Virus record (IMG/VR): IMGVR_UViG_3300045988_117149
Length of the DNA stretch: 64,000 nt
Reading direction: 5' to 3' (one strand)
Origin: a virus
Shown: in pieces, positions 11,501 to 64,000 of the stretch
Layout of the letters: each line of letters begins with the position of its first letter
Numbering within the stretch: the first letter of the stretch is position 1
Made by a program: the position numbers and the translations under genes
Notes under the pieces: generated by a model
Seen by the model: only the letters and a program-made list of their open reading frames with translations
The model's database searches: none
What the model was told of the DNA's origin: nothing

Positions 11501-11682
11501 GTAAAATCGTTTTTAGATAAGCCATAACCTTCTTTCTTATCTACCTTATCCTTGATAGAAAGTACGAAGGCCCAGAACTCATTAATAGTTCCGGCAAAGC
11601 CAGCACGAACAAAGTCATCATAGTAACCTTGTAACAACCGCTGGTCAATTTCTTCGCAGGTATAATACTTACTTACATACAT
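5512..11682 (-). CDS. giant fibre protein (2056 aa): coiled-coil rod, repeat modules, C-terminal S74 intramolecular chaperone
   Basis: Long [DE]R..AD..L...ID.E heptad-like arrays. Three ~95-aa repeats (G.[SL][ST].NDFT...KAKLDGIEE.ANYITK...ALG[ND]DPNFA). Six A-G-[VT]-M-[ST]-A-x-D-K-x-x-L-D motifs. C-terminal SDERLKSNIKPL motif. Confidence 0.85.
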   Translation of the reverse strand: MYVSKYYTCEEIDQRLLQGYYDDFVRAGFAGTINEFWAFVLSIKDKVDKKEGYGLSKNDFTDELKAKLDGIEEKANYITKVSELENDLKFQTEEDVKKAISDLVDGADDALDTLKELAEALGNDPNFATTITNKLTELRTSLSEEVSRAKEAEAALGAAIAAVDDNLKYAAEQLINKIDTVKADLKADIARVEAKADKNAEDIKDLNDKVNDKSDEIKDELKSLIQQEKDERIAADNEIKESVNELKTLHINDKAALEAKIAEEVSNRTNADTILDSKINEEITNRQSDTQALQSKIDQEAVDRHSEDQVLHNEISKEVADRTNADNALQGKIDQEAQARTSADQVLQNNIDSEATARAAQDLVLDHKIEDVKLQGQADKTQLLEAIATETQARKDADTALDNKKVDKREGYSLTKNDFTDILKAKLDGIEEKANYITKLSELINDMDFQNEEQVNAAIQKIVGSAPEVLDTLKEIADALGNDPNFATTITKKLAALTEEINQEKEDRIAGDAANSAEVATEKADRIAADTALETKLKEYIDNKSTAGDTALNVVKDNLNKEIQDRKDADAAIQASLDKEIADRKTADEAYTVSLNNVNKRVSELALSIQDSINTLRNELTEQVNANTTAIATNQHDIERNSEAITNLTKTVGDNYKEVKDMINEEIVDRTNADSGLSSRIDNVNIDLNTERVERTAADQVLQVNLDKEVADRTAADKALSTEFTAKLDNTKQALESEVGKLNTKIDQEKTDRAAADTALGARIDTLEAGNTTAMNDLKEQVKNNTTAINTEKDRAIAKETSLEAKIDTNLQNHKDDMAAINQDILTEKNERLAGDTLLQTNIDKEATERANQDTLINNAIAQEKADRTAADQAMDNKKVDKVDGKGLSANDFTDLLYAKLDGIEEHANYITKVSELLNDSDFQNAEQVEAAIQKIIGSAPEVLDTLAEIAKALGDDPNFAATMTAKLTELENKLTAEKNLREQGDDNLQQSFTNLSTTLTTTVNDLRTFVSETRTELLTSLNATNALVNQNSANIQRNLELIQGIQDNVNGNYTAIKDLLESEIATRKSEDIRLEAKIDQNTSDLNTEREERIAADKVLQDNIDAEEAARIAEDKKINARIDKEIQDRTDADTALDNKFTAITNDHEERLVAEEGTSDALPGTMVTDVSAVTRNATQLTFKVKTSTKDQENNQYGDEVEATKNLLPVTQTLAGVMSAADKVKLDGLDPNAITEISAASDADKVTVTVTKDNGLNDDTTDTFDLPVVSADKAGTMTAKDKVELDRINTANFALGAVTPNETTVGIAATKTNVEDGTTVQNPITLPSSTPEKAGVQSAADKKLFDSIPDKVIILSGDKPVEVVQQSSHVTLTHKFSSKKESGIYTSEAGDFKTTYIPAATETLAGVMTAADKVNLDETLPDAIAQEVQDRKDAIEALTNSSTAALNKEIQDRKDADTALDTKFTKAVADEAKARTDADTALGARIDKEISDRTAADTALDNKLQANIDALEAKHDAFVATKGKANGFASLDANGTVPANQLPSYVDDIIDVYATYDKSATGELTNIKLYSDAAHQNAITGEAGKIYINITNGEPPYQFRWTGTIFARADAQVLILGQITGTAFDGGRGKELEDQVASLKANGASHFNNNTYQASTVRLNFKCWFGNGNIQDHYSQITAATASQAGVMTAADKVKLDTTLPNQIATETTNRTNADNAITAKINSFPDHILGRDLENSGNLINLITSATKLTIGYWWTERKEDGSFQVNETQHTFDIPAATQTVAGVMTAADKKNLDNTVTGLANEITNRTNAINSLRTELKTYIDEAVGNTDTDLTALETKVNQHIANKSNPHGVTKAQVGLGNADNTSDANKPVSTAQASAIADAKAAGTAAQTSISNHAGRKDNPHSVTRTQLGLATTDQVVFAKTTAPSGFWKESSDERLKSNIKPLTHTLEQICSIPTESFIMDGKEDEGTIAQGLEAAGFNNYVEEDPRTKDSVPNPEEFETVVIDGEEYVLVKQVKYHKMSTLAIEGIKLLYDEIKALKAEISELRNLKDVD
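5515..5874 (-). other. Peptidase S74-type intramolecular chaperone / autoproteolysis domain of the fibre
   Basis: Last 120 aa begin at S-DERLKSNIKPL...ICSIPTESF, the hallmark of endosialidase/tail-spike C-terminal chaperone domains that cleave at the conserved Ser. Confidence 0.75.
8767..9051 (-). repeat. fibre internal repeat copy 3 (aa ~878-972)
   Basis: KVDGKGLSANDFTDLLYAKLDGIEEHANYITKVSELLNDSDFQNAEQVEAAIQKIIGSAPEVLDTLAEIAKALGDDPNFAATMTAKLTEL. Confidence 0.8.
10189..10473 (-). repeat. fibre internal repeat copy 2 (aa ~404-498)
   Basis: KREGYSLTKNDFTDILKAKLDGIEEKANYITKLSELINDMDFQNEEQVNAAIQKIVGSAPEVLDTLKEIADALGNDPNFATTITKKLAAL. Confidence 0.8.
11263..11544 (-). repeat. fibre internal repeat copy 1 (aa ~47-140)
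   Basis: KKEGYGLSKNDFTDELKAKLDGIEEKANYITKVSELENDLKFQTEEDVKKAISDLVDGADDALDTLKELAEALGNDPNFATTITNKLTEL. Confidence 0.8.
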
Positions 11683-12131: not shown

Positions 12132-12608
12132 TTATTCTACAAATTCTACTTTTGTATCTCGGTCTCTCTTTAGGATAACCATGAAAACCAAAGCCTCATC
12201 CTTAGCTTGAGCCGTTTGAGTATCACCTGATGGCTTATAAACTATACCGTTGATTACAAACCTATCTTGTTCCCAATTAAAATCCCAATAACCTTCCGGT
12301 GTAAGATAACCGATTTGTTCTATATAAGATTTAGAAATTAGTATTGATAAGTTTTCGTCATCCAATTCCCCAGTGATAGTTGCCTTGTTGATAGGCCAGT
12401 TTCTGAAAGCATTGTAGTAACATAATGCTTCGATTTGGATGTTATAATATTTAGGTATACTATCCTCAGCATGGCTGAGAAGTTGGTTAACGTTTTTTGC
12501 CCAAGTGATTGTTTGTCTACCGGCATCCCAATCTAAGAAGTCAGTGATAATTTTCTTGTACCTATCCCAAGAGCGGTTCTTTACCATTCTCCAGGGTTCT
12601 TTTGTCAT
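12132..12608 (-). CDS. hypothetical structural-module protein (158 aa)
   Basis: ORF-track ORF with a 4-nt overlap with the upstream gene. Confidence 0.55.
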   Translation of the reverse strand: MTKEPWRMVKNRSWDRYKKIITDFLDWDAGRQTITWAKNVNQLLSHAEDSIPKYYNIQIEALCYYNAFRNWPINKATITGELDDENLSILISKSYIEQIGYLTPEGYWDFNWEQDRFVINGIVYKPSGDTQTAQAKDEALVFMVILKRDRDTKVEFVE

Positions 12609-13501
12609 AACTCAGTAAGGATTGATTTATTACCACCTTTCACAGGAGTACTTGGATTAGGTCCATCCAATACACCCGGTTGCCTTCGGTTAACTACTCG
12701 AGGAACTACGGTTCGTGATACAGAATCACAGAACGGCAGGTATATTTCTAATCTTGAAGCTAACATACAAAGGTTCTTTCTTAATTCATCTATTAAGCCA
12801 CCTGGTTGCATTGCTTGAGAAAGTGTTTTCCATAATGAGCTTGCAGCTTCTGCCAGAGTGTCATAATATTGAACTTCAGTGGGCCCAGTAGTGATTTGTT
12901 TAATCCTATCACCTCGGGCAAGTTCAGGTTTAGAAGTACCATCACCAGTTTGCTCTTTGGTAGATGTAATTTGACTTAGGTATTCGGAAGTACTTGTCAA
13001 TAGATTAAGTATCTTCACATTAAGAAAGTCCCATGCTGCCAATTCCATTATTAATTGGTTTTCTAGTGCTTCATACCATAATTCATCAGTATATTTATCT
13101 GGTGCTATTGCATGGTTTACTAGCGGTCCAATATAATATTGCCATTTAGTGATGTATATAGATTTCTCTTCCCTGGTCATACCATCGGATATTTCTGAAG
13201 GTATGTAGTAATCGATTAAGTTATATATTGTATCGGCTAATGCCGTATGCCCATAATCACAAACTACCAGAGTCTTATCTACGGTAAGGTCTAAACCGGC
13301 AGAGTTAGTTACGTGTAGGGTAACTGTATAAAAACCGGGAGTTTCATAAGAATAGGAAACATGTCTTCCACCATTGAAAACCTCTCCCTTATCATCGCCA
13401 AAGTCCCAGTCAAAAATAGATTTGGCCGGGACTTTGGATATGACTCTGAATGAAACTTCCAGACCTGACGTAACGTACAAAAAGTCTAGATTGTCTTTCA
13501 T
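12605..13501 (-). CDS. PKD-domain protein (298 aa), head-proximal
   Basis: N-terminal FDWDFGDDKGEVFNGGRHVSYSYETPGFYTVTLHVTNSAG matches the PKD signature (WDFGDG...H.Y...G.Y.V.L.V.N..G). The C-terminal ~200 aa is unrecognised. Confidence 0.65.
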   Translation of the reverse strand: MKDNLDFLYVTSGLEVSFRVISKVPAKSIFDWDFGDDKGEVFNGGRHVSYSYETPGFYTVTLHVTNSAGLDLTVDKTLVVCDYGHTALADTIYNLIDYYIPSEISDGMTREEKSIYITKWQYYIGPLVNHAIAPDKYTDELWYEALENQLIMELAAWDFLNVKILNLLTSTSEYLSQITSTKEQTGDGTSKPELARGDRIKQITTGPTEVQYYDTLAEAASSLWKTLSQAMQPGGLIDELRKNLCMLASRLEIYLPFCDSVSRTVVPRVVNRRQPGVLDGPNPSTPVKGGNKSILTEL

Positions 13502-14023: not shown

Positions 14024-15142
14024 TTATTCAAGGTTTACCATCAAGTAAGGGTCAACGTTCATGAATTCGGGGAATCCATTTTCGCTGAATCTCTTGTCGG
14101 CAGCCAGCAACAGAGTTGCATCCTGGTACATCTTAGAGAAACCAGTAGTCAAGCTAGCGTAGATAGCCTGAGTTTGGTTAGAAACGATTCTCTCTGATTC
14201 CAGCATCAACTGACGAGCAGTCAGCTTAATCAAAGCGGCAGATGTATCAATCAACAGCAACTGTTGGTCTGGAGTACCCGGATGGATGTAGAAGTCGGCA
14301 TTCTTGGGAACCGGAGACTTCACATTCAGTGTAGCTTCAGTTGTACCAGAGTGGCGGTCTTTGAATTCCGGCAAGTTCAACATTTCGATTGCTTGGTCTT
14401 CACCACCAATCATTGTCTGGAAGTTGCGTCCCATACGAGCAGCACGTACCCAGATATGCAAAAGGTCTTTGTAAGTGATACCGTTGGTTGTTTCGTATAC
14501 ACCGATTACCGGGGCAGACTCAGAGCCATCAGGGTTGTTACCATTGATAGCCACGTCCATAGCCAGAGTATCCAGAGCATAACCCAACTGAACACCAAAG
14601 TCACGAAGATAGATTCCCAAGACATCGAGTGAAACGTAGTTGCGAACTTCGTCAGTAAGTTTGAAACCTTTTCCGATTTTGAAGAGGCTAACTGATTTCT
14701 GTCCGAAGCTAACATCACCCAATGGGATAGTTTCTGCCTCGTTAACCTTTGCAGGTGCAGCATCCGACATGTTAACCATCGGCATGATTGCTTGCAAACC
14801 ATTGATAGGTTGGTCTGATGCAATGATGTTCGGATAGAACGGTGCCTGGCGCATACCCAGAGTGATAGCCGAGCGAATGATTTCCGGAACAATCCAACGG
14901 ACATTCTGCTGAGGCATAGTGAAGATATTCTGCATGGTATCAACTTTCGGATTGATTCCCATCTTTTCAAACAATTCATCTTCGGAAATACCCCATTTAC
15001 CGGTAACCAACTCTCCCAAGGTAATTTCTACAGGCTTCTTTTCCTGTGAACCGGAACGTACAGCTTCCAAGCTTCTTACCATTTCCGGCAGCTCATTCAT
15101 AAAATCCTGAGCCTTCATTTTTGTAATATCAATTTGTCCCAT
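14024..15142 (-). CDS. major capsid protein (HK97-fold type, 372 aa)
   Basis: Size and position (protease-scaffold, decoration-like gene, then this). Raised GC and codon bias typical of a highly expressed late gene. Followed by a terminator. Confidence 0.7.
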   Translation of the reverse strand: MGQIDITKMKAQDFMNELPEMVRSLEAVRSGSQEKKPVEITLGELVTGKWGISEDELFEKMGINPKVDTMQNIFTMPQQNVRWIVPEIIRSAITLGMRQAPFYPNIIASDQPINGLQAIMPMVNMSDAAPAKVNEAETIPLGDVSFGQKSVSLFKIGKGFKLTDEVRNYVSLDVLGIYLRDFGVQLGYALDTLAMDVAINGNNPDGSESAPVIGVYETTNGITYKDLLHIWVRAARMGRNFQTMIGGEDQAIEMLNLPEFKDRHSGTTEATLNVKSPVPKNADFYIHPGTPDQQLLLIDTSAALIKLTARQLMLESERIVSNQTQAIYASLTTGFSKMYQDATLLLAADKRFSENGFPEFMNVDPYLMVNLE

Positions 15143-15654: not shown

Positions 15655-17175
15655 TTACTTGATTTTCTTCTTGTACAGACTGTCGAGTACGCTGCCGGTT
15701 GAAGAAGGTTCTTGGTTCTGGGTAGTGTCTTCGGTTCCAGTCTTACCCTGAGTGTCATCTTCACTTACAGAAGAAGCACGGTTAACGTCCTTAGAACCGC
15801 ATTTTGCACAAGTGAGAGGGAACTTCTCTTCCAAGCGAGCTTGGTAATCCTTAGTCAAGGAAATAAGAGTAGTGATGCCAGTAGTTTCTGCATTGAGCAT
15901 CGTAACGATTGTCTCATCTGCATTTTCACCCATCAACTTCTTGTAGGTTCCTACGGCATTCTCACGGAGAGAAGCAATGTGATTTTTACCTACTGTTGCC
16001 ATTTCTGTCAAGTTTGCAACCTGAGCATTCAGATTAGTAACCTGTTCCGTAAGAGAATTTTTCTCTGTAGTAAGGTTATCAACAGAAGTTTGCAATTCGT
16101 TTCTGGATGATACCAAATTCTGAATCAAGGATACCGCAGCTTCCTGGGACATCTCTTGACCTTCTCCCAAGGTAAGCATATCCTTACCAAACAGAGATTC
16201 GAGAAATTCTTGTAATTCTTTGTTCATATTTTCTTTATTATTGGTTTTTGATTTCTCATCACCTTCTTGGTTATCATTAAAAGAACCTTGAGTATCGTCC
16301 TTTTCCTGGAAGGATGAAAAGTCTGATTTGTAATCAGTGAAGAAGTATTGCTTGGATTTATCATCCCGGTATTCTTCGTAGGATGACCAAGTCCTTTTGG
16401 CAAATGTAGGATTGATAATTTTACCATCAGAACCAATCTTCTGGGCAAATGAATCAGCACCGTGTGATACCAGAGAAGTTTCCATATACCGAACCACTTC
16501 GGTAACAATTCTTCGTACCATTTCACCCTTTGAATCATAGGTACCGAGTTTTTGATAGAATTCACTCTCTTCCATACTTGGGTGAGATTTATCCCACTTA
16601 AATTGTACGGTAACCGAATTACTATGAATTGAAGGAGGTTCCATAAGGATGCCTCTAGCAATTCTTGGGTTTGCCTTACCATCAATCTTCAGAATACCGT
16701 TGATACCTCCAGGGATAGTGAAGCTACCATCCTTATAAGCCTCTTGCCACATCACTTGAGATACAGCACCGATTGCATTACCAATGTTAGTTTCATGGTC
16801 GCAATTTACTGTTTGCCCAAGTAACATTTTCATAGAAGCCTTGAGTACTCCATTCTGACCGAAGTCTGTCGGATTCCAGTTCTTAGATACAATCGTTTCT
16901 GAGAGTAATCTGAACATCGGTTCGATAAATTCTTCGTCCTTGGGAGTAAGTTCCGATTTATCCAGGTTAGGATAATAGGTATTATAATCTATATCCCCTC
17001 CCCAAAATCCAAATTGAGCAATGGTGTCCGGTGTAGGATTCTTCCATTTGTAATAATTCTCTGAGAAAGTCTGAGCCCCAACTGCTTCTGGGATATACCC
17101 AGCCATGATTGTATGGCCCTGACCTATCGTCATTGAATCAAGATGCTCTTTGTTTTTCTTTGTAAATTTACTCAT
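15655..17175 (-). CDS. prohead protease (HK97 S78/U35-like) fused to a coiled-coil scaffold (506 aa)
   Basis: VNCDHETNIGNAIGAV and ETSLVSHGADSFAQKI resemble the His region and the E-[VI]-S-L-V-x-x-P-A motif of HK97-family proteases. The C-terminal NELQTSVDNLTTEKNSLTEQVTNLNAQVANL is a coiled coil. Confidence 0.55.
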   Translation of the reverse strand: MSKFTKKNKEHLDSMTIGQGHTIMAGYIPEAVGAQTFSENYYKWKNPTPDTIAQFGFWGGDIDYNTYYPNLDKSELTPKDEEFIEPMFRLLSETIVSKNWNPTDFGQNGVLKASMKMLLGQTVNCDHETNIGNAIGAVSQVMWQEAYKDGSFTIPGGINGILKIDGKANPRIARGILMEPPSIHSNSVTVQFKWDKSHPSMEESEFYQKLGTYDSKGEMVRRIVTEVVRYMETSLVSHGADSFAQKIGSDGKIINPTFAKRTWSSYEEYRDDKSKQYFFTDYKSDFSSFQEKDDTQGSFNDNQEGDEKSKTNNKENMNKELQEFLESLFGKDMLTLGEGQEMSQEAAVSLIQNLVSSRNELQTSVDNLTTEKNSLTEQVTNLNAQVANLTEMATVGKNHIASLRENAVGTYKKLMGENADETIVTMLNAETTGITTLISLTKDYQARLEEKFPLTCAKCGSKDVNRASSVSEDDTQGKTGTEDTTQNQEPSSTGSVLDSLYKKKIK

Positions 17176-18659
17176 CTTGGTTTAGTATTTTGGTCCCCTC
17201 GAGAAGGAGCCGGGTTATTCTTATCTCTTGACCTACGAGCAGATTGGTTTTTATCATTCTGCCTTTGTTTCTTCTTGGTACCTTCTTGTGGGTCACCTCC
17301 ACCCTTAGAGAATTGGTCCTCAAGTGAAACTCTTGGTTCATCCTCATCAGGAGAATCGTATCCCATTTCCCAAGCATATTGCTCCTGGCTAATGATACCA
17401 GCTTTGTACAACAAATCAAGGTTCTGTATCTTATACTGACGACCTTGTTGGATTTTGACTTCATCAGAAACTGTAGAAGTTCCCCAATCAATCTTCATCC
17501 CCTTATTATTAAAGCCTGCCAGACGGAGTTCTAGAGAATAAAGTCTTTCCAATACATAAGCAACAAGCATTTGTATATTTTTTAACTGGCTAATCATCTT
17601 AGACAGCATTATGCCCGTTGCACCTTCACCAGTAGTGGCAGATACCCCAATGATAGAACCGTTAACTCCAAGGCCATTAGCAACTGATTGTTGATTCATA
17701 TTCCAAGGCTTCTCTATATTACCCATTTCTTTGGTGGTAGAGTTGAGCTTGAATTCATGGTCATCAATGTAACCAGCTACTACTCCATCTTTCATACTAT
17801 CCCGAATATTACGTTTAAGTAAATTAAGTTCTCGGTTCAATCTAGCTTCATAGGCTTGAATACTTTCATTGGGTCTTTGGTTAGATTTTTGCATCTTAGC
17901 TTCAACAAAACCAACCATACCACAAAGCTCCATGATATGTTTGAAGTTAATCTTCATATCATTTTGACCTTTTAAAGAATCCAATGCAGGCATGAAAGGT
18001 GGAACTCCATAAGGTTCATCGGTATCATTGAACATACCAACATAGAAGTAAGTTTCTGGGTTCAGCTTAATGTAATCTTGTTGCTTCATCCAGAAATTAT
18101 TGTTCTTCTGGTAAGGAGAATACACTCCATTTAGTTCACGTTTAAACTTGATATATTCTGGCTTAAGGAATAATACTGTTGCCAAACCATCAAGCTTATC
18201 ATTTGGAACTCCCTCTACTGATATTGCCCCACTTACAAGAAGTTGAACAATCATTTTGTTAACCAGACCATCTATACCTGCCGTATACCGAGTCCAACCT
18301 TTAGTAGCTTCTTTAAGATGTTCTCTCATCTTAGAGGCTTCGGCATCGGTATTATTAGGGAAAGTTACAGTATGACCGGTGTTAGCTAACTTAAACATAT
18401 CCTGCAATGCAATTCCCATATCAGGATTTACCTTGTATAAATCTCTGATTAAAGGTATTACATCAACACGAAAAGAGGGTTCAACTATTTTAGTTAACCC
18501 TTGTAATGATGTTATTAAGTTATCGCTATCATCGTCAACTGAGACTCTACCAGGTGAGATAGTAGTAGATGGCTTTGCTTCCTTATTCTGGGAAGAATCA
18601 TTCTTGGGAGGGTCCTTTTTACGGCCCCAACCCCAATTAAAATTGAAGTACTTTTTCAT
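17172..18659 (-). CDS. portal protein (495 aa)
   Basis: Immediately downstream of TerL with a 4-nt overlap. Typical size, with a basic/acidic C-terminal tail. Confidence 0.65.
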   Translation of the reverse strand: MKKYFNFNWGWGRKKDPPKNDSSQNKEAKPSTTISPGRVSVDDDSDNLITSLQGLTKIVEPSFRVDVIPLIRDLYKVNPDMGIALQDMFKLANTGHTVTFPNNTDAEASKMREHLKEATKGWTRYTAGIDGLVNKMIVQLLVSGAISVEGVPNDKLDGLATVLFLKPEYIKFKRELNGVYSPYQKNNNFWMKQQDYIKLNPETYFYVGMFNDTDEPYGVPPFMPALDSLKGQNDMKINFKHIMELCGMVGFVEAKMQKSNQRPNESIQAYEARLNRELNLLKRNIRDSMKDGVVAGYIDDHEFKLNSTTKEMGNIEKPWNMNQQSVANGLGVNGSIIGVSATTGEGATGIMLSKMISQLKNIQMLVAYVLERLYSLELRLAGFNNKGMKIDWGTSTVSDEVKIQQGRQYKIQNLDLLYKAGIISQEQYAWEMGYDSPDEDEPRVSLEDQFSKGGGDPQEGTKKKQRQNDKNQSARRSRDKNNPAPSRGDQNTKPR

Positions 18660-20158
18660 CTTGGTTGTACGATTACGTTAGTTTTTCCTTTCCTTATGTG
18701 ATTAGTGATTGCTTTCCCAAAGATGTCATCATCGGAATATACATCACCTTCTAAGTCTACATCCACTGCAGAGTTATTTGCTCTGTGTTTACCCATTGCA
18801 ACAGGTCTACCAATACCATCATATATGAAGGTATAAGCTTCTTGAACGAAGAATGGGTCTTTGATAATTACATTATCATTTCGGATATCCTCTTCTAGGT
18901 TCTCTATTATCACTGAACGATTCTTGGTGGTGGTTAACCAACCTGGAGACTTATCCATCTCTGGTCGGCTTTTGCCCTTTTTCTTGAGCATCTTTTGGTA
19001 GTAATACAAATTCGGATAACCTTCATCCTGGAGTTTAGAAGTTACTGCTAAACCAACGTCATTGGATTCTGGAGCTATCAATGCTTGATTAAATAACATC
19101 CCAGTATCACCAAGTAACTTAGCATAAGTACCCACTGCCATTCTTCCCTTGTATATACATTGTTCTTCTCCTTGCTTATCCATGCAGGTAAATGAAGAGT
19201 AGTCAGTAGCTCTACCTGTTGAAACGTCTGCACCAATGAAATATTCCTTGTCATCCTCTGGTTCACAGAACTGCCTATACTGACCATTGAATCTTCTCTT
19301 TATCACTGGGTAATCACTAAGGCAGTCCTCGATAGCTTTTATGTCAGCTAAGTCGAAGACTGTGTTACCTGATGATAAGAAGTCACCATCAATCTCTTGG
19401 GCAGTTCGTTTAGCTCCCAGGGCAGAAGACATCTGGTTATACCAATTGATATCTCGTTCTGGGTGCATTTGCCAGTATAATCGGATTGGGTTAAATGGGT
19501 TTCCTCCAGCGATAGCATCTACCCAAGTTGAGTGATAGAAGTTACCTACACCGTAAGGAGTTGAATTGACGATAGCAGCACCACCGGTGGATAGAGTTGG
19601 GAATGCGGCTGCCCAAATCTGAGCTGCCCACCGAACTACTGCTGCTTCGTCAATTACCAGGAGTGAAAGTGATTCAGAACGACCGGCTTCTGATGAGGTC
19701 GGAATCGATTCAATGAAAGAACCATTATCGAATTCTATCATTGAAGCAGAACCATATTCTCCAGTTCTACCATTTATGATTGGTGTTTGTAAGTACCATG
19801 GCAAGTTCTTGTACATGAATTTTATTTTCTTCAGTACCTTCTTTGCTGTGGTGTCCTTAATAGAGATGATGTTAATCTTCTTGTTAGGATGATACATAGC
19901 CAACCATAGGCAGTACATTGAAATAAGCTCTGTAATACCAGCCTGACGAAATTTCAGGATGATGTTAAATCTTTCGGCAATGAAATTATACAGAACTGAT
20001 TTCTGGAATGGGTATAGGTCAAATCTTACCTTTCCCAATACTGGGTGTATCACATTACAGAAAAGGCTAAAATAGAAAACATCTACTGAAACCCTTGAGA
20101 GGTTTGCAAGCTCTTCTCGAGTTAAAGTATTTCGAATTTCTGAGATAGTCTTTGCCAT
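18656..20158 (-). CDS. terL: terminase large subunit
   Basis: LYPFQKSVL...KFRQAGITE (Walker A-like R-Q-x-G), LLVIDEAA (Walker B), NSTPYGVGNFY, and a C-terminal nuclease-sized domain. Confidence 0.85.
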   Translation of the reverse strand: MAKTISEIRNTLTREELANLSRVSVDVFYFSLFCNVIHPVLGKVRFDLYPFQKSVLYNFIAERFNIILKFRQAGITELISMYCLWLAMYHPNKKINIISIKDTTAKKVLKKIKFMYKNLPWYLQTPIINGRTGEYGSASMIEFDNGSFIESIPTSSEAGRSESLSLLVIDEAAVVRWAAQIWAAAFPTLSTGGAAIVNSTPYGVGNFYHSTWVDAIAGGNPFNPIRLYWQMHPERDINWYNQMSSALGAKRTAQEIDGDFLSSGNTVFDLADIKAIEDCLSDYPVIKRRFNGQYRQFCEPEDDKEYFIGADVSTGRATDYSSFTCMDKQGEEQCIYKGRMAVGTYAKLLGDTGMLFNQALIAPESNDVGLAVTSKLQDEGYPNLYYYQKMLKKKGKSRPEMDKSPGWLTTTKNRSVIIENLEEDIRNDNVIIKDPFFVQEAYTFIYDGIGRPVAMGKHRANNSAVDVDLEGDVYSDDDIFGKAITNHIRKGKTNVIVQPR

Positions 20159-22062: not shown

Positions 22063-22499
22063 TTCTTATAACTTCTCAATTTTACGTACTTAAGCCATGC
22101 AAATGGTTTACGATTCTCCAAGTAGTATGGGTCTTTATCATTATTGTGAGCTTCCTCTTCGAAACTTACATCATGATACCTCTCATTCTGTTTGTTCCAA
22201 CCGGCAAAGCACATGATAATAAGATATTCGATTCCATACCAAATGTAAAAGAATCCCAAACCAAGGATAGGAATCCACCAGAAGGATAGACCCAATGAGC
22301 AGAGAATGATTCCTAGAATCAGACCCACAATTGTACACTCAATCTGTTGTACTTGGTGAGTACGTTCGTGATCAATATCCTCTTGCAATAAATCCTCTTC
22401 TTTATCCTTGAAGAAGGAGTTATAGAGGAAGGTAATTGCCTTGTAACTGGGGAAAAGGAATACTTTTGCTACCCAGCTGTTAAAATGACATCTTTTCAT
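22059..22499 (-). CDS. membrane protein with HExxH motif, lysis-cassette partner (146 aa)
   Basis: DIDHERTHQVQQ is followed by 2-3 hydrophobic helices (IVGLILGIILCSLGLSFWWIPILGLGFFYIWYGIEYLIIMCF). 4-nt overlap with the endolysin gene. Confidence 0.45.
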   Translation of the reverse strand: MKRCHFNSWVAKVFLFPSYKAITFLYNSFFKDKEEDLLQEDIDHERTHQVQQIECTIVGLILGIILCSLGLSFWWIPILGLGFFYIWYGIEYLIIMCFAGWNKQNERYHDVSFEEEAHNNDKDPYYLENRKPFAWLKYVKLRSYKK

Positions 22500-23092
22500 A
22501 TCTTATCTTTGAAGTTTTCGTAAGAATTTCTTAGCTTTTGGTCGTAAGCATTTTGTGCATATCCAGGACCATTGTACTTTCTTGCAAAGCCTGCCCAGTC
22601 CTTTTCCTTGAGATTCTTCAAACAACCAGAGGTATTCATGAAGTAGTACATCAATTCTAGTTGTTTTTCGTGAGATTCTGACATCTTATGAACGAATTCA
22701 TAGACATCTTTACAGCTACAAAGATTGTGATTGAAGCCCATGATCTGGAACATTCCCCAACTTGCAGACTTTAAAGCACATTCTTCGTCAATTTCTTTGG
22801 CTAATTCGAGTCTTTTGTACTCATGAACACCTCCGAGATACTTCGATTTATCCCATTTAGGGAAAAATACTGTAGGATACTTCTTGCAAAGATAACCTAA
22901 ATCTCTGTCAGGGAACTTTTTATGAAATTCCTTGTACATGATGTGACCTTCGAAGAGGATTTGAGGTCTACCGTCAGCCAAAAATCCATCTCTACCAGCT
23001 GCTTCTACTACTTGAACAGCTTTGAGTAGAGCTGGTTCTAGACCCAAGCGATTAGCAAGGTCTCTAATCATCTCATTTGTTAATTTATCCAT
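22496..23092 (-). CDS. endolysin, N-acetylmuramidase (pfam11860-type)
   Basis: LLKAVQVVEAAGRDGFLADGRPQILFEGHIMY, SASWGMFQIMGFNH and DWAGFARKYNGPGYAQNAYDQKL match the family signature. Confidence 0.85.
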   Translation of the reverse strand: MDKLTNEMIRDLANRLGLEPALLKAVQVVEAAGRDGFLADGRPQILFEGHIMYKEFHKKFPDRDLGYLCKKYPTVFFPKWDKSKYLGGVHEYKRLELAKEIDEECALKSASWGMFQIMGFNHNLCSCKDVYEFVHKMSESHEKQLELMYYFMNTSGCLKNLKEKDWAGFARKYNGPGYAQNAYDQKLRNSYENFKDKI

Positions 23093-24364: not shown

Positions 24365-24660
24365 GATACTTTTTTGATAGAGATGGTAATTATGCTGGGT
24401 CATCAATGCAAGGGTGGGAGGTAATACTCCTACTCTGCCTCCCAGTTCTTATTGTATTATTCTTTGTATTCCTTCCCTTAATTATATTGCATAAATATGC
24501 CTCTAGAGAAGAAGATAAGAAATTCGAAGAAGAACATCCGCAAATATTAAAAGTAGATTCTTATATTACCGGCTGGTACCCTTGGCATAGATATTCCCTT
24601 GCATATACCATCTCCCTTGTATGTTGGGTAATTGCAATGCTAATGGCTTTGACTAATTAA
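24361..24660 (+). CDS. small membrane protein (99 aa)
   Basis: Two hydrophobic helices. Its stop overlaps the convergent gene 24653..25411 by 8 nt. Confidence 0.45.
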   Translation: MRYFFDRDGNYAGSSMQGWEVILLLCLPVLIVLFFVFLPLIILHKYASREEDKKFEEEHPQILKVDSYITGWYPWHRYSLAYTISLVCWVIAMLMALTN

Positions 24661-25411
24661 TCTTGATTCTAAGCATAACCCTTTTAACATATCCGTTTAT
24701 CTTATTGCCCAGTATAAGTTCTATAAGTATACCTCCGGAGAAATCTGAAGGAGAAAGGTTTCCTTTTTTAACGGTAATAGAACCATGACTATAGGAACCA
24801 GAGGGAGTCCAATCGGATGGGTCTACTGTATCTATCTTATAATTAATGGCTTGAGAATATTCTCTATCACAACCATAAAATAAACCTTGAGCATCATAGA
24901 GACTCATATTAAAATAGAAATCAGAATAAGGTACCAATTGACTACCTTTTAAGTAGAGCTCGAATATAGCAGTGGGTTCTGTATATGAACCATTATCAGA
25001 CCAAGGGACCTTAGTTACAGGTATAAGTAAATATTCATCTTGAGATGCAGGTAAGGTACCTGAAGTTACATATTGACCATTATAGTTTAAGATATAGGGT
25101 AAGTCTTTATATGTAGTTAGAGAGTTCTTATCATACCTACCCCATATTTCTACATACATTGGGATATCTACTGCCTTCTGAGTGATTGTGATAGTGATAA
25201 CTTTACCAGTAGTGGCTTGGGTAAGAGTGATAGTGGCTGCTCTACTTGAAGAACCTGAGTTTGCAGAAATGTCTACTTCTAAATTGTAAGATACTGCATC
25301 ATTTGATGTCTTCTTAGTAAAAACCCAAGCATTACTTGATGAGATTGGTGGGTCATATGTGATACTTGTAGTAAAGTCAATAATATCTGACTTAGATACT
25401 TTACCATTCAC
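24653..25411 (-). CDS. BACON-like paralog A, body of the gene; 5' end displaced by a C9 tract
   Basis: SGSSSRAATITLTQATTGKVITITITQKA repeat end. The track start is a GTG inside an open frame. The true ATG is probably 25536 (see the repeat feature and findings). Confidence 0.6.
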   Translation of the reverse strand: MNGKVSKSDIIDFTTSITYDPPISSSNAWVFTKKTSNDAVSYNLEVDISANSGSSSRAATITLTQATTGKVITITITQKAVDIPMYVEIWGRYDKNSLTTYKDLPYILNYNGQYVTSGTLPASQDEYLLIPVTKVPWSDNGSYTEPTAIFELYLKGSQLVPYSDFYFNMSLYDAQGLFYGCDREYSQAINYKIDTVDPSDWTPSGSYSHGSITVKKGNLSPSDFSGGILIELILGNKINGYVKRVMLRIKIN

Positions 25412-25512
25412 TACAGTATCTCTATATGAGTGAATGGTAAAGGTCTTTTTGGTTGCATCTGAAGGTACTGTTATTTCCTGAGATGCGGCTCTGGTACTAA
25501 ATACCAGATTTA

Positions 25513-25521
25513 GGGGGGGGG
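25513..25521 (-). repeat. homopolymer C9 (plus-strand G9) in codons 6-8 of the paralog A leader
   Basis: ATG 25536 GAA AAT TTA AAT CCC CCC CCC TAA. One extra C reads through into 24653..25411. Confidence 0.9.
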
Positions 25522-25545
25522 ATTTAAATTTTCCATATCTTTCTT

Positions 25546-26169
25546 TTAATATTGATACATGTCAATTCTGTTACTAGCTATAATGTCCCCATAACTAAAT
25601 CGTATATAAAACCATCCAAAATAAGTTCCGGAACTTCCTCCCTTAGTAGAGATTACCATAGAATCAGTACCTTGAGTTTGGTCTGAAGCTATGGAGAAAC
25701 CACCATTAAAGGGACTTTGTTGAGATATCTCAAAGGTATCAGTAGTTCCCATTCCTTCAGTTTCGATAGTACCATCAGAATAGATATCTGATTTGAAAAC
25801 CTCGAAAATCATTCTGGATATAGTTGAATCTACATGGGTTTCATAAGTTTCTGTGTTGGCATCATAGATATAGTTTCCATTATCCGGATTACCTACACAG
25901 AAATATTTAGTTGAGATTATATATCTCTGAGGAACCTGAGAGTAATTAAGGGTAATCCTCTTACCGGATGCAGGTTGGAGAAGTACTATCTTACCACTTC
26001 GAGTGGAAGAGGTATTATTAGCTGGTACTGTAATGGTTAATTGGGAAGGAACCTCAGAAGTCTTAATAGTACTACCTGAGGGTAAATTCTGAGATTCCAC
26101 TTTCCAATTAGCAGCATATTCTTGAGCTAAGTTACCATTGATGTACTTATAGGTAATAGATTCAACCAT
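25546..26169 (-). CDS. BACON-like paralog B, body of the gene; 5' end displaced by a G7 tract
   Basis: SSTRSGKIVLLQPASGKRITLNYSQVP repeat end. The upstream frame is open back to the tract. The likely true ATG is 26260. Confidence 0.6.
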   Translation of the reverse strand: MVESITYKYINGNLAQEYAANWKVESQNLPSGSTIKTSEVPSQLTITVPANNTSSTRSGKIVLLQPASGKRITLNYSQVPQRYIISTKYFCVGNPDNGNYIYDANTETYETHVDSTISRMIFEVFKSDIYSDGTIETEGMGTTDTFEISQQSPFNGGFSIASDQTQGTDSMVISTKGGSSGTYFGWFYIRFSYGDIIASNRIDMYQY

Positions 26170-26222
26170 TACTACGGTAGTTTCTCCTGCCCCTGCAAAA
26201 CTTAAATCAAGGGTGGTGACCT

Positions 26223-26229
26223 CCCCCCC
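26223..26229 (-). repeat. homopolymer G7 (plus-strand C7) in codons 11-13 of the paralog B leader
   Basis: ATG 26260 ...TTC CGT AGG GGG GGA GGT CAC CAC CCT TGA. One fewer G gives ...RRGEVTTLDLSFAGAGETTVVMVESITYKY in frame. Confidence 0.9.
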
Positions 26230-26271
26230 TACGGAATGATACTACATTTTTCTTTTCCATATCCTTGAAAT

Positions 26272-27243
26272 TTATAAAGTGATTATTTGGTCTGATGAAG
26301 GCAATAGGAAAGTAGACCTTAATTGCCAAGTTTGATTAGTAAATCTATAAGCTGATATACGATCACCTGGGTAAGCCATTTCAGTACTACCATTTTGTAA
26401 ATTTACTCTTACACCCTCAGATTTTTTATACTTATGGACTGAGGTATCATCTAATACAGCGAAATTAAAATAAGCTGTACCAGTACTACCAGTTTGAGGT
26501 GTTTGCCCCTCTTTGAAGAAAGCTCCTGAAAAAGTGTTCAGAGGCCAATTGATTGTAAGGGTGATATCCTGTTCCGCAGCTTTCTGCCATATAGTCACTT
26601 CTCTACGTTGGTCACCACAGGTTACTAAGAGTGTTCCGGACCTTTCTGAAGAACCCGAGTTTGCTGCAGTTGCTTTAACTATAATTTGGTACCAATTAGG
26701 TGCACCTGCCATAATAGACCCATCTTTAACTGTAACCTTAGTTGCCCAAGAAGGAGTTACTCCTACGGATGGTTGTTTGGCCATTACCTCTCCATCACTT
26801 CGAGTCATATAAGATTGAACCATAATCGTAGTAGTATTACCTATATTAGCTCCTATGGTAGCACTTACATTCAATACACCTAAGAAGTAGGTATAAGTGA
26901 AGTTGGGTTCTTGACTTATAGGGAAAGATATAGTTTGACCAGATTCTCTCTGCTTAAATACAAGAGTATGGGTTCTGGCAGAGGAACCTGTATTCTCTTG
27001 CAGGGTGGTAAAAGTTACTTTGCAATCATTGCCCTCAAAAGCATATTTCACGCTTACCCAAGAGGGGATGCTGGATTCCATATCCCAATCTACATTAGTC
27101 TTCTGCCCAGTACTCTTGCCATTAATGTACTTGGTCTTATAGGAGTAGATATAGGTAGTCTTGGTATCCCCAACATTCTGACCTATCTCAAAGACCGATG
27201 CCCTGGGTGCAGCATTGGCTACTCTAAAGTTAAATTCGTTCAT
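26272..27243 (-). CDS. BACON-like paralog C, intact (323 aa, two repeats)
   Basis: TGSSARTHTLVFKQRESGQTISFPISQEP and SGSSERSGTLLVTCGDQRREVTIWQKAAEQ. Normal ATG with no homopolymer. Confidence 0.65.
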   Translation of the reverse strand: MNEFNFRVANAAPRASVFEIGQNVGDTKTTYIYSYKTKYINGKSTGQKTNVDWDMESSIPSWVSVKYAFEGNDCKVTFTTLQENTGSSARTHTLVFKQRESGQTISFPISQEPNFTYTYFLGVLNVSATIGANIGNTTTIMVQSYMTRSDGEVMAKQPSVGVTPSWATKVTVKDGSIMAGAPNWYQIIVKATAANSGSSERSGTLLVTCGDQRREVTIWQKAAEQDITLTINWPLNTFSGAFFKEGQTPQTGSTGTAYFNFAVLDDTSVHKYKKSEGVRVNLQNGSTEMAYPGDRISAYRFTNQTWQLRSTFLLPSSDQIITL

Positions 27244-57714: not shown

Positions 57715-57936
57715 TTATGTAGACATAGTATCCTCTTTCCTCAAGTTGGTAGTTGTTTTTGCTGAATCTGAATGCTTTAAGCTAATTTTACAATTTGGGC
57801 AATGTACTACTCTAAAGATACTATTGTCAGCAACATTATATACTCGTTCTGTTTCACTAGTATCATATTCAAATTCGCAATCACAGCAAGGACATTTAGC
57901 TCGCCATACCGTGGGCCCGTTCAAAATCTTTTTCAT
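57715..57936 (-). CDS. zinc-ribbon protein (73 aa)
   Basis: CPCCDC...HCPNC. Confidence 0.5.
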   Translation of the reverse strand: MKKILNGPTVWRAKCPCCDCEFEYDTSETERVYNVADNSIFRVVHCPNCKISLKHSDSAKTTTNLRKEDTMST

Positions 57937-60187: not shown

Positions 60188-60241
60188 AATTATAAATAGA
60201 AAGAGGGACATACCTACCAGTAGCAGATACATCCCTCTTAA

Positions 60242-63875: not shown

Positions 63876-64000
63876 TCATCTATTTTTTTTTCGTTGATGT
63901 ATACACTATCGAACTGTTTACCATCTATCTGTAGATAAGAAAAGCCGATATTATTAATAAATAGTTCCCTGAGTTCCTCTAATTGTTGGTATGTACCATC
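63876..64000 (-). CDS. C-terminal end of a gene entering from the right edge
   Basis: Own translation of the minus strand: ...QQLEELRELFINNIGFSYLQIDGKQFDSVYINEKKNR, stop TGA at 63878..63876. Confidence 0.45.

What the first reader, a model, noticed from the sequence alone, without database searches (positions are those of the whole stretch)
26167..26260. A second homopolymer (G7) does the same to the adjacent paralog
Seen in the sequence: the minus-strand ATG at 26260 reads MEKKNVVSFRRGGGHHP and then stops. The G7 run (plus-strand C7, 26223..26229) forms codons 11-13. Removing one G (or adding two) gives MEKKNVVSFRRGEVTTLDLSFAGAGETTVVMVESITYKY..., in frame with ORF 25546..26169 (about 237 aa). 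LDLSFAGAGETT is the typical first strand of BACON/Ig-type domains. Both tracts sit at equivalent 5' positions of tandem paralogs, and both are OFF in this sequence. That is hard to attribute to chance. Independent switching would give four expression states for the pair.
Basis: partly seen in the sequence, partly recalled or inferred. Interest (0 to 1): 0.8.

Follow-up and report, generated by a model that had tools for sequence, protein, structure and literature searches.

The report
Homopolymer on/off switches in gut-phage adhesin-like genes
Two neighbouring genes for sticky-domain (BACON/Ig-like) proteins in a very common human-gut phage each start with a run of G or C whose length differs between related phages and sets the gene on or off; this would be only the second phage group known to use this bacterial-style switch.

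Summary
Minus-strand ATG 26260 is followed by a G7 run (plus 26223-26229) and a stop after 17 codons. G6 or G9 joins it to ORF 25546-26169, giving 237 or 238 aa. The neighbouring gene has a C9 run (25513-25521) that needs C10 or C7.

These are the window's only G/C runs longer than 5 nt. Across 800 kb of related loci, all 108 G/C runs of 7 or more lie in these two leaders.

About 40 related contigs, from human-gut Flandersviridae phages of about 86 kb, carry G5-G10 (G6 and G12 are implied by protein calls) and C7-C11. All four ON/OFF combinations occur.

OFF alleles keep intact bodies under purifying selection (omega 0.10-0.37), so they are not pseudogenes. Independent assemblies with identical flanks give the same tract length, and a T9 control is stable, so sequencing error is unlikely.

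Best reading: slipped-strand phase variation of dispensable, mosaic BACON/Ig-like genes, probably virion adhesins by analogy. I could not test read-level switching or expression.

A conserved hairpin follows the C tract only, so leaky -1 frameshifting of the neighbouring gene stays open.

The closest precedent is the polyG tracts of Campylobacter Fletchervirus phages. I class this as a new member of a known kind.

The parts
26272..27243 (-). Gene A: an intact 323-aa protein with two BACON-type domains. It is the first gene of the three-gene cluster and has no tract.
   Evidence: ORF. Pfam BACON 42.5 bits, above the 25-bit cut-off, with two matched stretches. Orthologs at 59-98% identity in 22 relatives.
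26230..26260 (-). Leader 1: the ATG plus 10 codons (MEKKNVVSFR, and the first base of codon 11). It is conserved at the nucleotide level and is found joined to several unrelated gene bodies.
   Evidence: Identity is 90-100% across the leader even where the body behind it falls to about 50% (037111).
26223..26229 (-). G7 tract (C7 on the plus strand), the switch of gene B. It is OFF here; G6, G9 or G12 would be ON.
   Evidence: Relatives carry G7-G10 plus shorter runs in interrupted or fusion alleles. G6 and G12 are implied by P0001 and P0002.
26202..26209 (-). Two overlapping out-of-frame stops, TGA 26209-26207 and TAA 26204-26202. They end both OFF frames 5-6 codons after the tract.
   Evidence: Read directly; translations. 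The motif TTGATTTA[AG] is kept in most body types.
25546..26222 (-). Body of gene B, in the +1 frame relative to ATG 26260. It encodes a BACON-like beta sandwich followed by a second beta-sandwich domain.
   Evidence: Repaired ORF of 237 aa. dN/dS 0.10 against OFF allele 023812 at dS 0.39. All-beta AlphaFold model, pLDDT 71.7. The exact 207-aa OFF call is seen on 214 contigs.
25522..25536 (-). Leader 2: the ATG plus 4 codons (MENLN) of gene C.
25513..25521 (-). C9 tract on the coding strand (G9 on the plus strand), the switch of gene C. It is OFF here; C10 or C7 would be ON. The 0-frame TAA follows immediately.
   Evidence: Relatives carry C7-C11 and interrupted alleles.
25490..25508 (-). Conserved hairpin with a 6-bp core (8 bp in the window), starting 4 nt after the C tract. 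It could stimulate -1 frameshifting or modulate slippage. Gene B has no counterpart.
   Evidence: Fold z-score -3.56, with 0 of 200 shuffles folding as well. The core is 100% paired in 5 variants, with 2 compensatory pairs and 1 wobble change, and none of the slid registers match.
24653..25512 (-). Body of gene C, in the -1 frame relative to ATG 25536. It encodes a BACON domain plus C-terminal beta-sandwich domains.
   Evidence: Repaired ORF of 294 aa. Pfam BACON 25.6 bits. omega 0.27-0.37 against three OFF alleles at dS about 0.9. AlphaFold pTM 0.62. The exact 252-aa OFF call is seen on 656 contigs.

Best explanation
The G7 run in gene B and the C9 run in neighbouring gene C are hypermutable homopolymer switches (contingency loci) in a Flandersviridae-type human-gut phage. 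The proposed mechanism is slipped-strand mispairing during phage DNA replication, which adds or removes a base. Only lengths of 3n (gene B, in the window's context) or 3n+1 (gene C) connect the short conserved leader to the gene body. The other two frames reach a stop within 0-6 codons after the tract.

Each gene therefore flips heritably and reversibly between ON and OFF, independently of the other. A phage population would be a mixture of up to four states.

The products are non-essential, highly mosaic proteins made of a BACON/Ig-like domain plus a variable beta-sandwich domain. By analogy they are most likely virion-exposed glycan, mucus or cell-surface adhesins. The switch would then be bet-hedging over adhesion or host-surface binding.

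Shown here: tract polymorphism, frame logic, intact and selected gene bodies, conservation of the leader-tract module, and dispensability. Inferred: the replication-slippage mechanism, the switching rate, virion location and the adhesin role.
For: 1. These are the only long G/C runs in the window, and the expected counts are far below 1. All 108 G/C runs of 7 or more in 800 kb of related loci sit in these leaders.

2. Length varies among about 40 related contigs, and ON and OFF alleles occur in both genes in all four combinations.

3. The variation is not noise. Independent assemblies with identical 673-931-nt flanks have identical tracts, while genomes 0.4-0.8% diverged differ: 9 vs 10, 8 vs 9, and 7 vs the interrupted 5+3. 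Sixteen A/T runs of 6-7 nt never change the length of a pure run. The T9 control is T9 in 10 of 11 relatives.

4. The genes are not pseudogenes. OFF-versus-OFF comparisons give omega 0.10 for B at dS 0.39, and 0.27-0.37 for C at dS about 0.9, with no internal stops. In 078616 an extra A upstream restores the frame of a C9 allele.

5. Interrupted alleles are point substitutions inside the run, as expected for locked states: G5AG3 is ON, while C5TC3 and C3TC5 are OFF.

6. The leader, tract and first 60-100 nt are the best-conserved part of each gene and are joined to unrelated bodies. The arrangement persists in 044114, where gene A is only 59% identical.

7. On function: the proteins carry BACON domains, model as tandem Ig-like sandwiches, and match phage BACON proteins including the crAssphage one. 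BACON and PKD domains also occur in this phage's tail and capsid modules. The relative OCLK01000006.1 is listed as Flandersviridae. BACON/Ig-like proteins of Flandersviridae-related myoviruses were shown experimentally to confer epithelial and mucus adherence (PMC13370021).

8. Precedent: Fletchervirus phages use hypermutable polyG tracts in receptor-binding protein genes (Sorensen et al. 2021, as cited in PMC11959909).
Against: No read-level data were available, so heterogeneity within one population and the switching rate are not shown. Assemblies with identical flanks share tract length, so consensus states are stable over short timescales.

OFF predominates. About 75% of DNA-level B alleles are OFF. 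The window's exact OFF products are seen on 214 contigs (B) and 656 contigs (C). The +1 frame (G7, G10) is over-represented for B, at about 21 of 37 alleles. Those figures could instead point to leaky expression from nominally OFF alleles, to selection for OFF, or to one widespread clone.

Virion location and the adhesin role rest on analogy. The proteins tested in PMC13370021 could not be matched to A, B or C. The fold searches returned only generic Ig-like hits.
Confidence: 0.72

Rival explanations
1. Recoding rather than, or on top of, a DNA switch. The runs are slippery sites where RNA polymerase or the ribosome shifts frame, so nominally OFF alleles still make some full-length protein. 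The tract would then set the expression level rather than acting as an on/off switch. For gene C with C9 this would be a -1 ribosomal shift on C CCC CCC, with a 0-frame TAA and a 3' hairpin. For gene B with G7 or G10 it would need a +1 or -2 shift, or loss of one G in the transcript.
For: For gene C, the productive frame of C9 is the -1 frame, TAA follows the run directly, and a conserved hairpin starts 4 nt downstream, with z -3.56 and two compensatory pairs. The 9-nt, -1-requiring state is the commonest C allele, and the +1-requiring frame is rare (C8 and C11 only). OFF alleles dominate in nature yet stay under purifying selection. For gene B, the +1 frame (G7/G10) is over-represented.
Against: Alleles occur in all three frames for both genes, and genuine in-frame alleles are common, so there is no fixed frame relationship as in dnaX or tail-chaperone frameshifts. 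Nothing folds unusually downstream of the G tract of gene B (z +0.19). The 4-nt spacer is shorter than the usual 5-9 nt (own knowledge). Interrupted OFF alleles (C5TC3, C3TC5) destroy the slippery heptamer yet persist. Only 5 distinct hairpin variants exist, so the covariation evidence is thin. No Rfam family matches.
Confidence: 0.13
2. A non-adaptive mutational hotspot. The runs merely encode Gly or Pro loops in dispensable genes, and frameshifts there are tolerated losses of accessory genes on the way to decay, not a maintained switch.
For: The genes are dispensable. 023734 has lost both, and 29027_8, 075452 and 078616 carry truncated bodies. The ON fraction of B alleles, about 25%, is close to the one-third expected from random frames.
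Against: The genome otherwise avoids G/C runs of 6 or more entirely, yet these two are kept pure in most alleles across lineages with dS about 0.9 and on different bodies. OFF-versus-OFF comparisons still show omega 0.10-0.37 and intact ORFs of more than 200 codons, which requires frequent return to ON or some expression. Both OFF frames stop at once, and a compensating indel restored the frame in 078616.
Confidence: 0.1
3. A sequencing or assembly artefact: homopolymer length miscalls in metagenome assemblies, with the genes really always in frame.
For: Homopolymers are error-prone. All the data are metagenome assemblies. Two contigs end at or in a tract: L088 in the G run, and 35655_130 nine nt after C9.
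Against: Different assemblies of identical sequence reproduce the same length, for example G10 in 127654, 39321_35 and OGUK01000305. The T9 control and all A/T runs of 6-7 nt are stable. Interrupted alleles and a compensating upstream indel cannot be homopolymer miscalls. The relatives with SPAdes-style contig names (NODE_.., cov_..) are consistent with short-read assemblies. The same OFF calls recur on hundreds of contigs.
Confidence: 0.03

Closest known systems
Hypermutable polyG tracts of Campylobacter Fletchervirus phages (Sorensen et al. 2021, Cell Rep 35:109214; known here only through citing papers PMC11959909, PMC12823448 and PMC10877375)
   Same: A lytic-type tailed phage carries homopolymer runs inside its own genes for surface or binding proteins. 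Changes in run length create phenotypically different phage subpopulations. The logic is the same as in its host's contingency loci.
   Different: The phage family (Flandersviridae-type, about 86 kb), the likely host phylum (Bacteroidota) and the proteins are all different, and A, B and C hit no functionally annotated PHROG family. Here there are two adjacent switches of opposite base (G and C on the coding strand), placed within the first 13 codons on a conserved leader that is shuffled onto different bodies. The targets are BACON/Ig-like accessory proteins, not a demonstrated receptor-binding protein. Nothing here has been verified experimentally.
Bacterial simple-sequence contingency loci (polyG/polyC phase variation in Campylobacter jejuni, Haemophilus, Neisseria; e.g. 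PMC4965091, PMC8437040, PMC11868660)
   Same: A run of 7-11 G or C near the 5' end of a surface-related gene. Frameshifting produces ON and OFF states. Length is polymorphic between close relatives. The gene bodies stay intact.
   Different: The switches are encoded by a virus, not a cell. Replication uses the phage's own family-A polymerase (57896-60232), so slippage rates and repair may differ. Bacteroidota themselves are better known for invertible promoters than for homopolymer switches (own knowledge).
Modular Ig-like/BACON adhesins of prevalent gut phages (Apjok et al. 2026, PMC13370021)
   Same: The same phage group (myoviruses related to Flandersviridae), the same domain types (BACON, PKD, unspecified Ig-like), the same modular and mosaic architecture, and small sequence changes that alter binding.
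   Different: That paper does not mention homopolymers, phase variation or switching (0 occurrences). Its tested proteins could not be matched to A, B or C. A regulatory layer would be an addition to that work.
Other phage diversification devices: DGRs (Bordetella phage BPP-1) and invertible tail-fibre segments (Mu G segment, P1 cin); both are cited in PMC12823448 and BPP-1 also in PMC8008677
   Same: A programmed, high-frequency, heritable change in a phage surface or binding protein within a population.
   Different: Those systems change the protein's sequence or swap alternative C-termini, using a reverse transcriptase or a recombinase. Here the switch is simple ON/OFF by slippage and needs no dedicated enzyme.
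Programmed -1 ribosomal frameshift sites (dnaX, IS elements, phage tail-chaperone G/GT; review PMC5009743)
   Same: This applies to gene C only: a slippery run (C CCC CCC), a 0-frame stop, and a nearby conserved 3' hairpin.
   Different: The frame relation is not fixed across relatives, the spacer is 4 nt, and there is no structure at gene B.

Membership tests
Homopolymer (SSR) phase-variable contingency locus | A mononucleotide run of about 7 or more inside, or just upstream of, the coding region, longer than composition predicts. | tested here: met
   G7 at codons 11-13 of B and C9 at codons 6-8 of C. These are the only G/C runs longer than 5 in 64 kb. Expected counts are 0.0001-0.2.
Homopolymer (SSR) phase-variable contingency locus | Run length is polymorphic among closely related genomes while the flanks are conserved. 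| tested here: met
   Runs of G5-G10 and C7-C11 in about 40 contigs. Genomes 0.4-0.8% diverged differ in length. The A/T controls are stable.
Homopolymer (SSR) phase-variable contingency locus | Length changes toggle between a full-length ORF and early termination. | tested here: met
   G6 and G9 give 237 and 238 aa, against 17-19 aa otherwise. C7 and C10 give 293 and 294 aa, against 7-13 aa otherwise. Natural ON and OFF alleles of both genes exist.
Homopolymer (SSR) phase-variable contingency locus | The gene is functional: intact and under purifying selection even in OFF alleles. | tested here: met
   omega 0.10 for B and 0.27-0.37 for C between OFF alleles, with no internal stops.
Homopolymer (SSR) phase-variable contingency locus | High-frequency reversible switching within a clonal population (read-level or colony/plaque-level heterogeneity). 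| not testable with these tools
   No reads or isolates were available. The only hints are two contigs that break at the tracts.
Homopolymer (SSR) phase-variable contingency locus | Protein expression follows tract length. | not testable with these tools
   This needs reporter fusions or proteomics.
Fletchervirus-type phage polyG system | Tracts encoded in the phage genome itself, in genes for surface or receptor-binding proteins. | tested here: inconclusive
   The tracts are phage-encoded (terminase, portal, major capsid protein and tail fibre are in the window). The proteins have binding-type BACON/Ig folds, but virion location and receptor binding are not shown.
Fletchervirus-type phage polyG system | Homology to the Fletchervirus phase-variable genes. 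| tested here: not met
   A, B and C have no PHROG hit with an annotated function. B has none at all, and A hits only phrog_4757, of unknown function. There is no nucleotide match to GenBank phages. The resemblance is analogy, not homology.
BACON domain (Pfam PF13004) | A score at or above the Pfam gathering threshold of 25 bits. | tested here: inconclusive
   A scores 42.5 bits (met) and C 25.6 bits (just met). B scores 20.6 bits, below the cut-off. However, B aligns to A's BACON region at 31% identity, E 1e-7, and models as a beta sandwich.
Programmed -1 ribosomal frameshift site | A slippery heptamer of the form X XXY YYZ. | tested here: met
   C CCC CCC in gene C. For gene B the needed shift is +1 or -2, so this feature does not apply to it.
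Programmed -1 ribosomal frameshift site | A stimulatory RNA structure 5-9 nt downstream, conserved among relatives. | tested here: inconclusive
   Gene C has a hairpin 4 nt downstream, z -3.56, with 2 compensatory pairs among only 5 variants. Gene B has none (z +0.19).
Programmed -1 ribosomal frameshift site | A fixed frame relationship between the upstream and downstream ORFs across relatives. | tested here: not met
   Alleles are found in all three frames, including many directly in-frame ones.
Flandersviridae (candidate family, Benler et al. 2021) | A close relative is listed in the family. Genome of about 85 kb with a family-A DNA polymerase, from the human gut. | tested here: met
   OCLK01000006.1 (86,168 bp, locus L093) carries leader 1 and is listed as Flandersviridae in the paper's supplement. 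It matches IMG/VR contig 037111 with 0 differences in 931 nt, and gene A of 037111 is 96% identical to the window's. Relatives are 84-88 kb. PolA lies at 57896-60232.

The most novel reading that the evidence does not exclude
A portable switch cassette, made of a conserved leader plus a G or C run, recombines onto different BACON/Ig-like adhesin bodies in one of the most prevalent human-gut phage families. It would give phase-variable, bet-hedged display of mucus or epithelium adhesins on virions. For gene C, a conserved hairpin would add a second, RNA-level layer that makes the common C9 allele leaky through -1 frameshifting. The predominance of OFF alleles in stool-derived assemblies would then reflect retention of ON, adherent virions at the mucosa.
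Probability: 0.25. Interest if true: 0.85.

Novelty: new member of a known kind. Interest (0 to 1): 0.66.

Why it matters
Phase variation by simple repeats is a classic bacterial strategy. In phages, the library I searched holds essentially one documented case, the Campylobacter Fletchervirus phages, which a 2025 review calls exceptional (PMC11959909).

Here the same logic appears in Flandersviridae-type phages, which Benler et al. [quoted passage not shown] It sits on genes of the class recently shown to mediate phage adherence to epithelium and mucus (PMC13370021).

If confirmed, these phages would not display a fixed set of adhesins. They would exist as mixed populations that switch adhesins on and off. 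That would bear on models of phage persistence at mucosal surfaces, on reading 'frameshifted' or 'truncated' genes in virome catalogues (hundreds of contigs carry the OFF calls), and on choosing or engineering phages for therapy.

It can be tested directly with existing public metagenome reads.

Tried and rejected
- **GenBank phages:** a megablast of the locus found nothing, so there is no annotated close relative.
- **Pseudogene reading:** rejected on dN/dS and intact ORFs.
- **Sequencing-error reading:** rejected on reproducibility between assemblies, stable A/T controls and interrupted alleles.
- **Programmed frameshift for gene B:** there is no downstream structure (z +0.19) and alleles occur in all three frames, so I kept it only as a minor rival.
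- **Internal-start rescue of B:** the 207-aa form starts at Met31, but that Met is not conserved (P0013 has VRVES there) and the form would lack the first beta strands. Rejected.
- **Fold searches for a specific function:** only generic Ig, Fab, titin and cadherin hits in the PDB and phage BACON proteins in the viral library, so no specific function emerged.
- **PHROGs:** no annotated family for A, B or C.
- **Rfam:** no family in the window. There are also no tRNAs.
- **Matching to tested adhesins:** no peptide match in the held supplements of PMC13370021.
- **ON/OFF census from cluster sizes:** abandoned, because clusters mix ON and OFF lengths. I used per-sequence contig counts instead.
- **Original Fletchervirus paper:** not held in the library, so its details come from citing papers only.
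Full report
**1. Observation**

On the minus strand, ATG 26260 opens a 17-codon ORF, MEKKNVVSFRRGGGHHP, which ends at TGA 26209-26207. A G7 run lies at 26223-26229 (C7 on the plus strand) and spans codons 11-13. Changing it to G6 or G9 gives a 237- or 238-aa ORF continuous with ORF 25546-26169. G5 and G8 give 18-19 aa, ending at TAA 26204-26202.

The next gene downstream starts at ATG 25536 and has C9 on the coding strand at 25513-25521, followed at once by TAA. C10 gives 294 aa and C7 gives 293 aa, joined to ORF 24653-25411.

The window has no G or C run of 6, four runs of 5, and then only these two. From the window's own run-extension frequencies the expected counts are 0.0001 for a plus-strand G run of 9 or more, and 0.008-0.2 for a C run of 7 or more.

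**2. Context**

The window is part of a tailed phage:
- Large terminase, 18656-20158.
- Portal, 17172-18659.
- Head protease, 15655-17175.
- Major capsid protein, 14024-15142.
- A 2056-aa tail fibre with an S74 chaperone domain, 5512-11682.
- Endolysin, 22496-23092.
- Family-A DNA polymerase, 57896-60232.

There is no match among GenBank phages. IMG/VR and metagenome collections hold many relatives, mostly 84-88-kb contigs from human gut assemblies.

One relative, OCLK01000006.1 (locus L093), is listed as Flandersviridae in the supplement of Benler et al. 2021. It is identical over 931 nt to IMG/VR contig 037111, whose gene A is 96% identical to the window's. The window is therefore a Flandersviridae-type phage. 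That family is described as one of the most common in the human gut and is thought to infect Bacteroides, Parabacteroides and Prevotella (PMC8008677).

**3. The genes**

Three minus-strand genes lie head to tail with gaps of 9-11 nt: A (26272-27243, intact), B and C.
- Pfam finds BACON in A (42.5 bits, two stretches) and in C (25.6 bits). B scores below threshold at 20.6 bits.
- Similarity between the three is confined to that N-terminal domain, at 29-40% identity. The C-terminal halves are unrelated.
- AlphaFold models of ON alleles (P0003 for B, P0121 for C) are all-beta tandem sandwiches, with pLDDT about 71.
- PDB matches are generic Ig-like folds. Viral-library matches are phage BACON proteins, including one from crAssphage.
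- In the B model, the leader encodes the first strand (residues 3-9) and the G run encodes the Gly loop after it. In C, the run encodes prolines in a low-confidence N-terminus.
- BACON-like segments also occur in the 613-aa protein next to the tail fibre and in a 315-aa protein. A PKD-domain protein lies at 12605-13501, about 520 nt downstream of the major capsid gene.

**4. Tract variation in relatives**

Leader 1, tract and state:

| Tract | State | Where seen |
|---|---|---|
| G7 | OFF | window, 065267, 078616, L079, L080, L082, L086, L097, L098 |
| G8 | OFF | 023812, 120779, 27914_1640, L094, L095 |
| G9 | ON | 075450, 050055, L081, L089 |
| G9 | OFF | 037111 (a different body) |
| G10 | OFF | 14772_5, 127654, L083, L084, L096 |
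| G10 | ON | 044114 (its own context) |
| Interrupted by G-to-A | ON | G5AG3 in 042040; G7AG in 075452 |
| Interrupted by G-to-A | OFF | G7AGG, G6AGGG, G5AGG |

Called proteins also imply G6 (P0001, RRGEV) and G12 (P0002, RRGGGEV).

Leader 2 shows C7 (ON), C8 (OFF), C9 (OFF), C10 (ON) and C11 (OFF). Its interrupted forms are C3TC6 (ON), C5TC3 (OFF) and C3TC5 (OFF). In 078616 a C9 allele is brought into frame by an extra A upstream.

All four ON/OFF combinations occur. About a quarter of B alleles and about 40% of C alleles are ON at the DNA level.

In the protein collection, the window's exact OFF products are seen on 214 contigs (B, 207 aa, DAM26650.1) and 656 contigs (C, 252 aa, UWG76041.1). 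ON forms of 237/238 and 294 aa are seen on far fewer contigs. So OFF predominates in assemblies from the public collections, at least some of them from human gut.

**5. Not an artefact**

- Sixteen A/T runs of 6-7 nt in the flanks never change the length of a pure run across up to 16 relatives.
- The only long A/T run, T9 at 63883, is T9 in 10 of 11 relatives.
- Different assemblies with zero differences in 673-931 nt of flank always share the tract length, for example G10 in 127654, 39321_35 and OGUK01000305. Pairs with 4-7 differences already differ in length.
- Interrupted alleles and the compensating upstream indel cannot be homopolymer miscalls.

**6. Not pseudogenes**

- Between two OFF alleles of B (the window and 023812): dS 0.39, dN 0.04, omega 0.10.
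- Between the window's OFF allele of C and three other OFF alleles: dS about 0.9, omega 0.27-0.37.
- The ORFs, of more than 200 codons, have no internal stops.
- Pooled pN/pS for the always-intact gene A is 0.44.

**7. The switch is a conserved module on a plastic locus**

- All 108 G/C runs of 7 or more in 800 kb (redundant) of fetched loci lie in these leaders.
- The leader, tract and first 60-100 nt are 90-100% identical even where the body is unrelated, as in 037111, or much diverged, as in 044114.
- The locus is highly mosaic. Leader 1 is fused to the C body in 120779, 037528 and 054081. Residues 1-54 of A are fused onto leader 1 at a shared GGATATGGAA (P0001, P0002). The B BACON domain is joined to C-type C-termini (P0165, P0080). 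A is joined to a C-type C-terminus (P0207).
- 30123_33 has G7-AT-C9 in tandem in a single leader.
- Both genes are deleted in 023734, and 29027_8 and 075452 carry partial deletions.
- B and C are therefore dispensable accessory genes that exchange modules.
- Both OFF frames stop 0-6 codons after either tract.

**8. Mechanism**

The best-supported reading is slipped-strand phase variation at the DNA level. Each gene would toggle independently, giving up to four population states. This rests on the comparative data above. Replication slippage itself, and its rate, are inferred.

A second layer cannot be excluded for gene C. Its C9 allele needs the -1 frame, has a 0-frame TAA at the run, and is followed after 4 nt by a hairpin at 25490-25508. 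That hairpin is unusually stable (z -3.56, with 0 of 200 shuffles folding as well). Its 6-bp core is paired in all five sequence variants, with two compensatory changes and one wobble change.

Against a dedicated frameshift site, alleles exist in all three frames, and interrupted OFF alleles lack a slippery heptamer. Gene B, the subject of this finding, has no such structure (z +0.19). Its commonest states, G7 and G10, would need a +1 or -2 shift.

**9. Function**

Function is inferred by analogy. Apjok et al. 2026 (PMC13370021) found the following:
- Proteins with BACON, PKD or other Ig-like domains from crAss-like phages and from myoviruses related to Flandersviridae (over 90% nucleotide similarity) confer epithelial and mucus adherence, and gut retention, when displayed on phage K1F.
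- These proteins are modular.
- Small sequence changes alter what they bind.

That paper does not mention homopolymers or phase variation, and I could not match its tested proteins to A, B or C.

If B and C are such adhesins, the switch would hedge between adherent and free virions, or between binding specificities. A speculative corollary is that stool-derived assemblies would be enriched for OFF alleles.

**10. Comparison and novelty**

The closest precedent is the polyG tracts in receptor-binding protein genes of Campylobacter Fletchervirus phages. I know these only through citing papers. [quoted passage not shown]

My library searches found no report of homopolymer switches in gut, Bacteroides or crAss-type phages, and none in Flandersviridae.

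There is no homology to the Fletchervirus genes. The resemblance is one of mechanism. I therefore class this as a new member of a known kind. Four features distinguish it: two adjacent switches of opposite base, a conserved leader cassette shared by shuffled bodies, BACON/Ig-like targets, and a very prevalent human-gut phage family.

**11. Verdict**

What is missing is read-level and experimental proof of switching and of function. Interest 0.66.

Noticed in passing
window 25490-25508 (minus strand); second helix about 25455-25486: A conserved hairpin starts 4 nt after the C9 tract of gene C. Its fold z-score is -3.56. The 6-bp core is paired in all 5 sequence variants, with two compensatory changes. 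The next 44 nt are almost invariant, even in lineages where the rest of the gene has dS about 0.9. It could be a -1 frameshift stimulator or a slippage modulator. Gene B has no equivalent.
   Followed up: partly
L071 (contig 075450) 5001-6031; L074 (contig 042040) 5001-5969: Gene A is disrupted in exactly the two relatives where B and C are both ON. In 075450 a 62-nt tandem duplication shifts the frame. In 042040 a +2/-2 indel pair encloses a stop. With n = 2 this could be coincidence or an assembly artefact.
   Followed up: partly
P0001, P0002, P0165, P0080, P0207; L061, L076, L060, L068: The locus is extremely mosaic. Residues 1-54 of A are fused to B's leader at a shared GGATATGGAA. B's leader is fused to the C body. 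The B BACON domain is joined to C-type C-termini. A is joined to a C-type C-terminus. Both genes are deleted in 023734, leaving the leader start fused to the last codons of C.
   Followed up: partly
L070 (contig 30123_33) 5078-5130: One leader carries G7-AT-C9 in tandem, so two hypermutable runs sit in the same gene start, followed by yet another body type.
   Followed up: no
window 26272-27243 (gene A) and 24653-25512 (gene C), against close relatives: Among very close relatives, nonsynonymous differences far outnumber synonymous ones. Gene A: 17 N to 1 S against L063, and 12 N to 0 S against L060. Gene C: 9 N to 1 S against L060. This hints at diversifying selection on the binding proteins, although omega is below 1 at greater divergence.
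   Followed up: partly
whole window: G/C homopolymers are strongly avoided across the window: no G run longer than 4 (35 G4 runs), only four C5 runs, and none of 6. That makes the two long tracts stand out and suggests selection against slippery G/C runs elsewhere.
   Followed up: yes
L075 (contig 078616) 6634-6660: A C9 allele, nominally OFF, is put back in frame by an extra A in the upstream A run (ATGGAAAAACTT), giving MEKLKSPPLNL... This is a second-site compensation.
   Followed up: yes
L088 (ULJH01057150.1, ends at 2328); L008 (contig 35655_130): Two contigs end inside the G run or 9 nt after the C9 run. Such breaks would fit read-level heterogeneity or low coverage at the tracts.
   Followed up: no
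window 12605-13501; 3669-5510; 564-1511: Further Ig-like proteins lie in the structural modules. A PKD-domain protein lies about 520 nt downstream of the major capsid gene and may be a Hoc-like decoration protein. BACON-like repeats occur in the 613-aa protein beside the tail fibre and in a 315-aa protein. This is the same BACON-plus-PKD set reported for adherent Flandersviridae-related phages.
   Followed up: partly
window 63883-63891: A T9 run (A9 on the minus strand) lies just upstream of minus-strand ATG 63872. It is T8 in one of 11 relatives (L027). I used it only as a control.
   Followed up: partly
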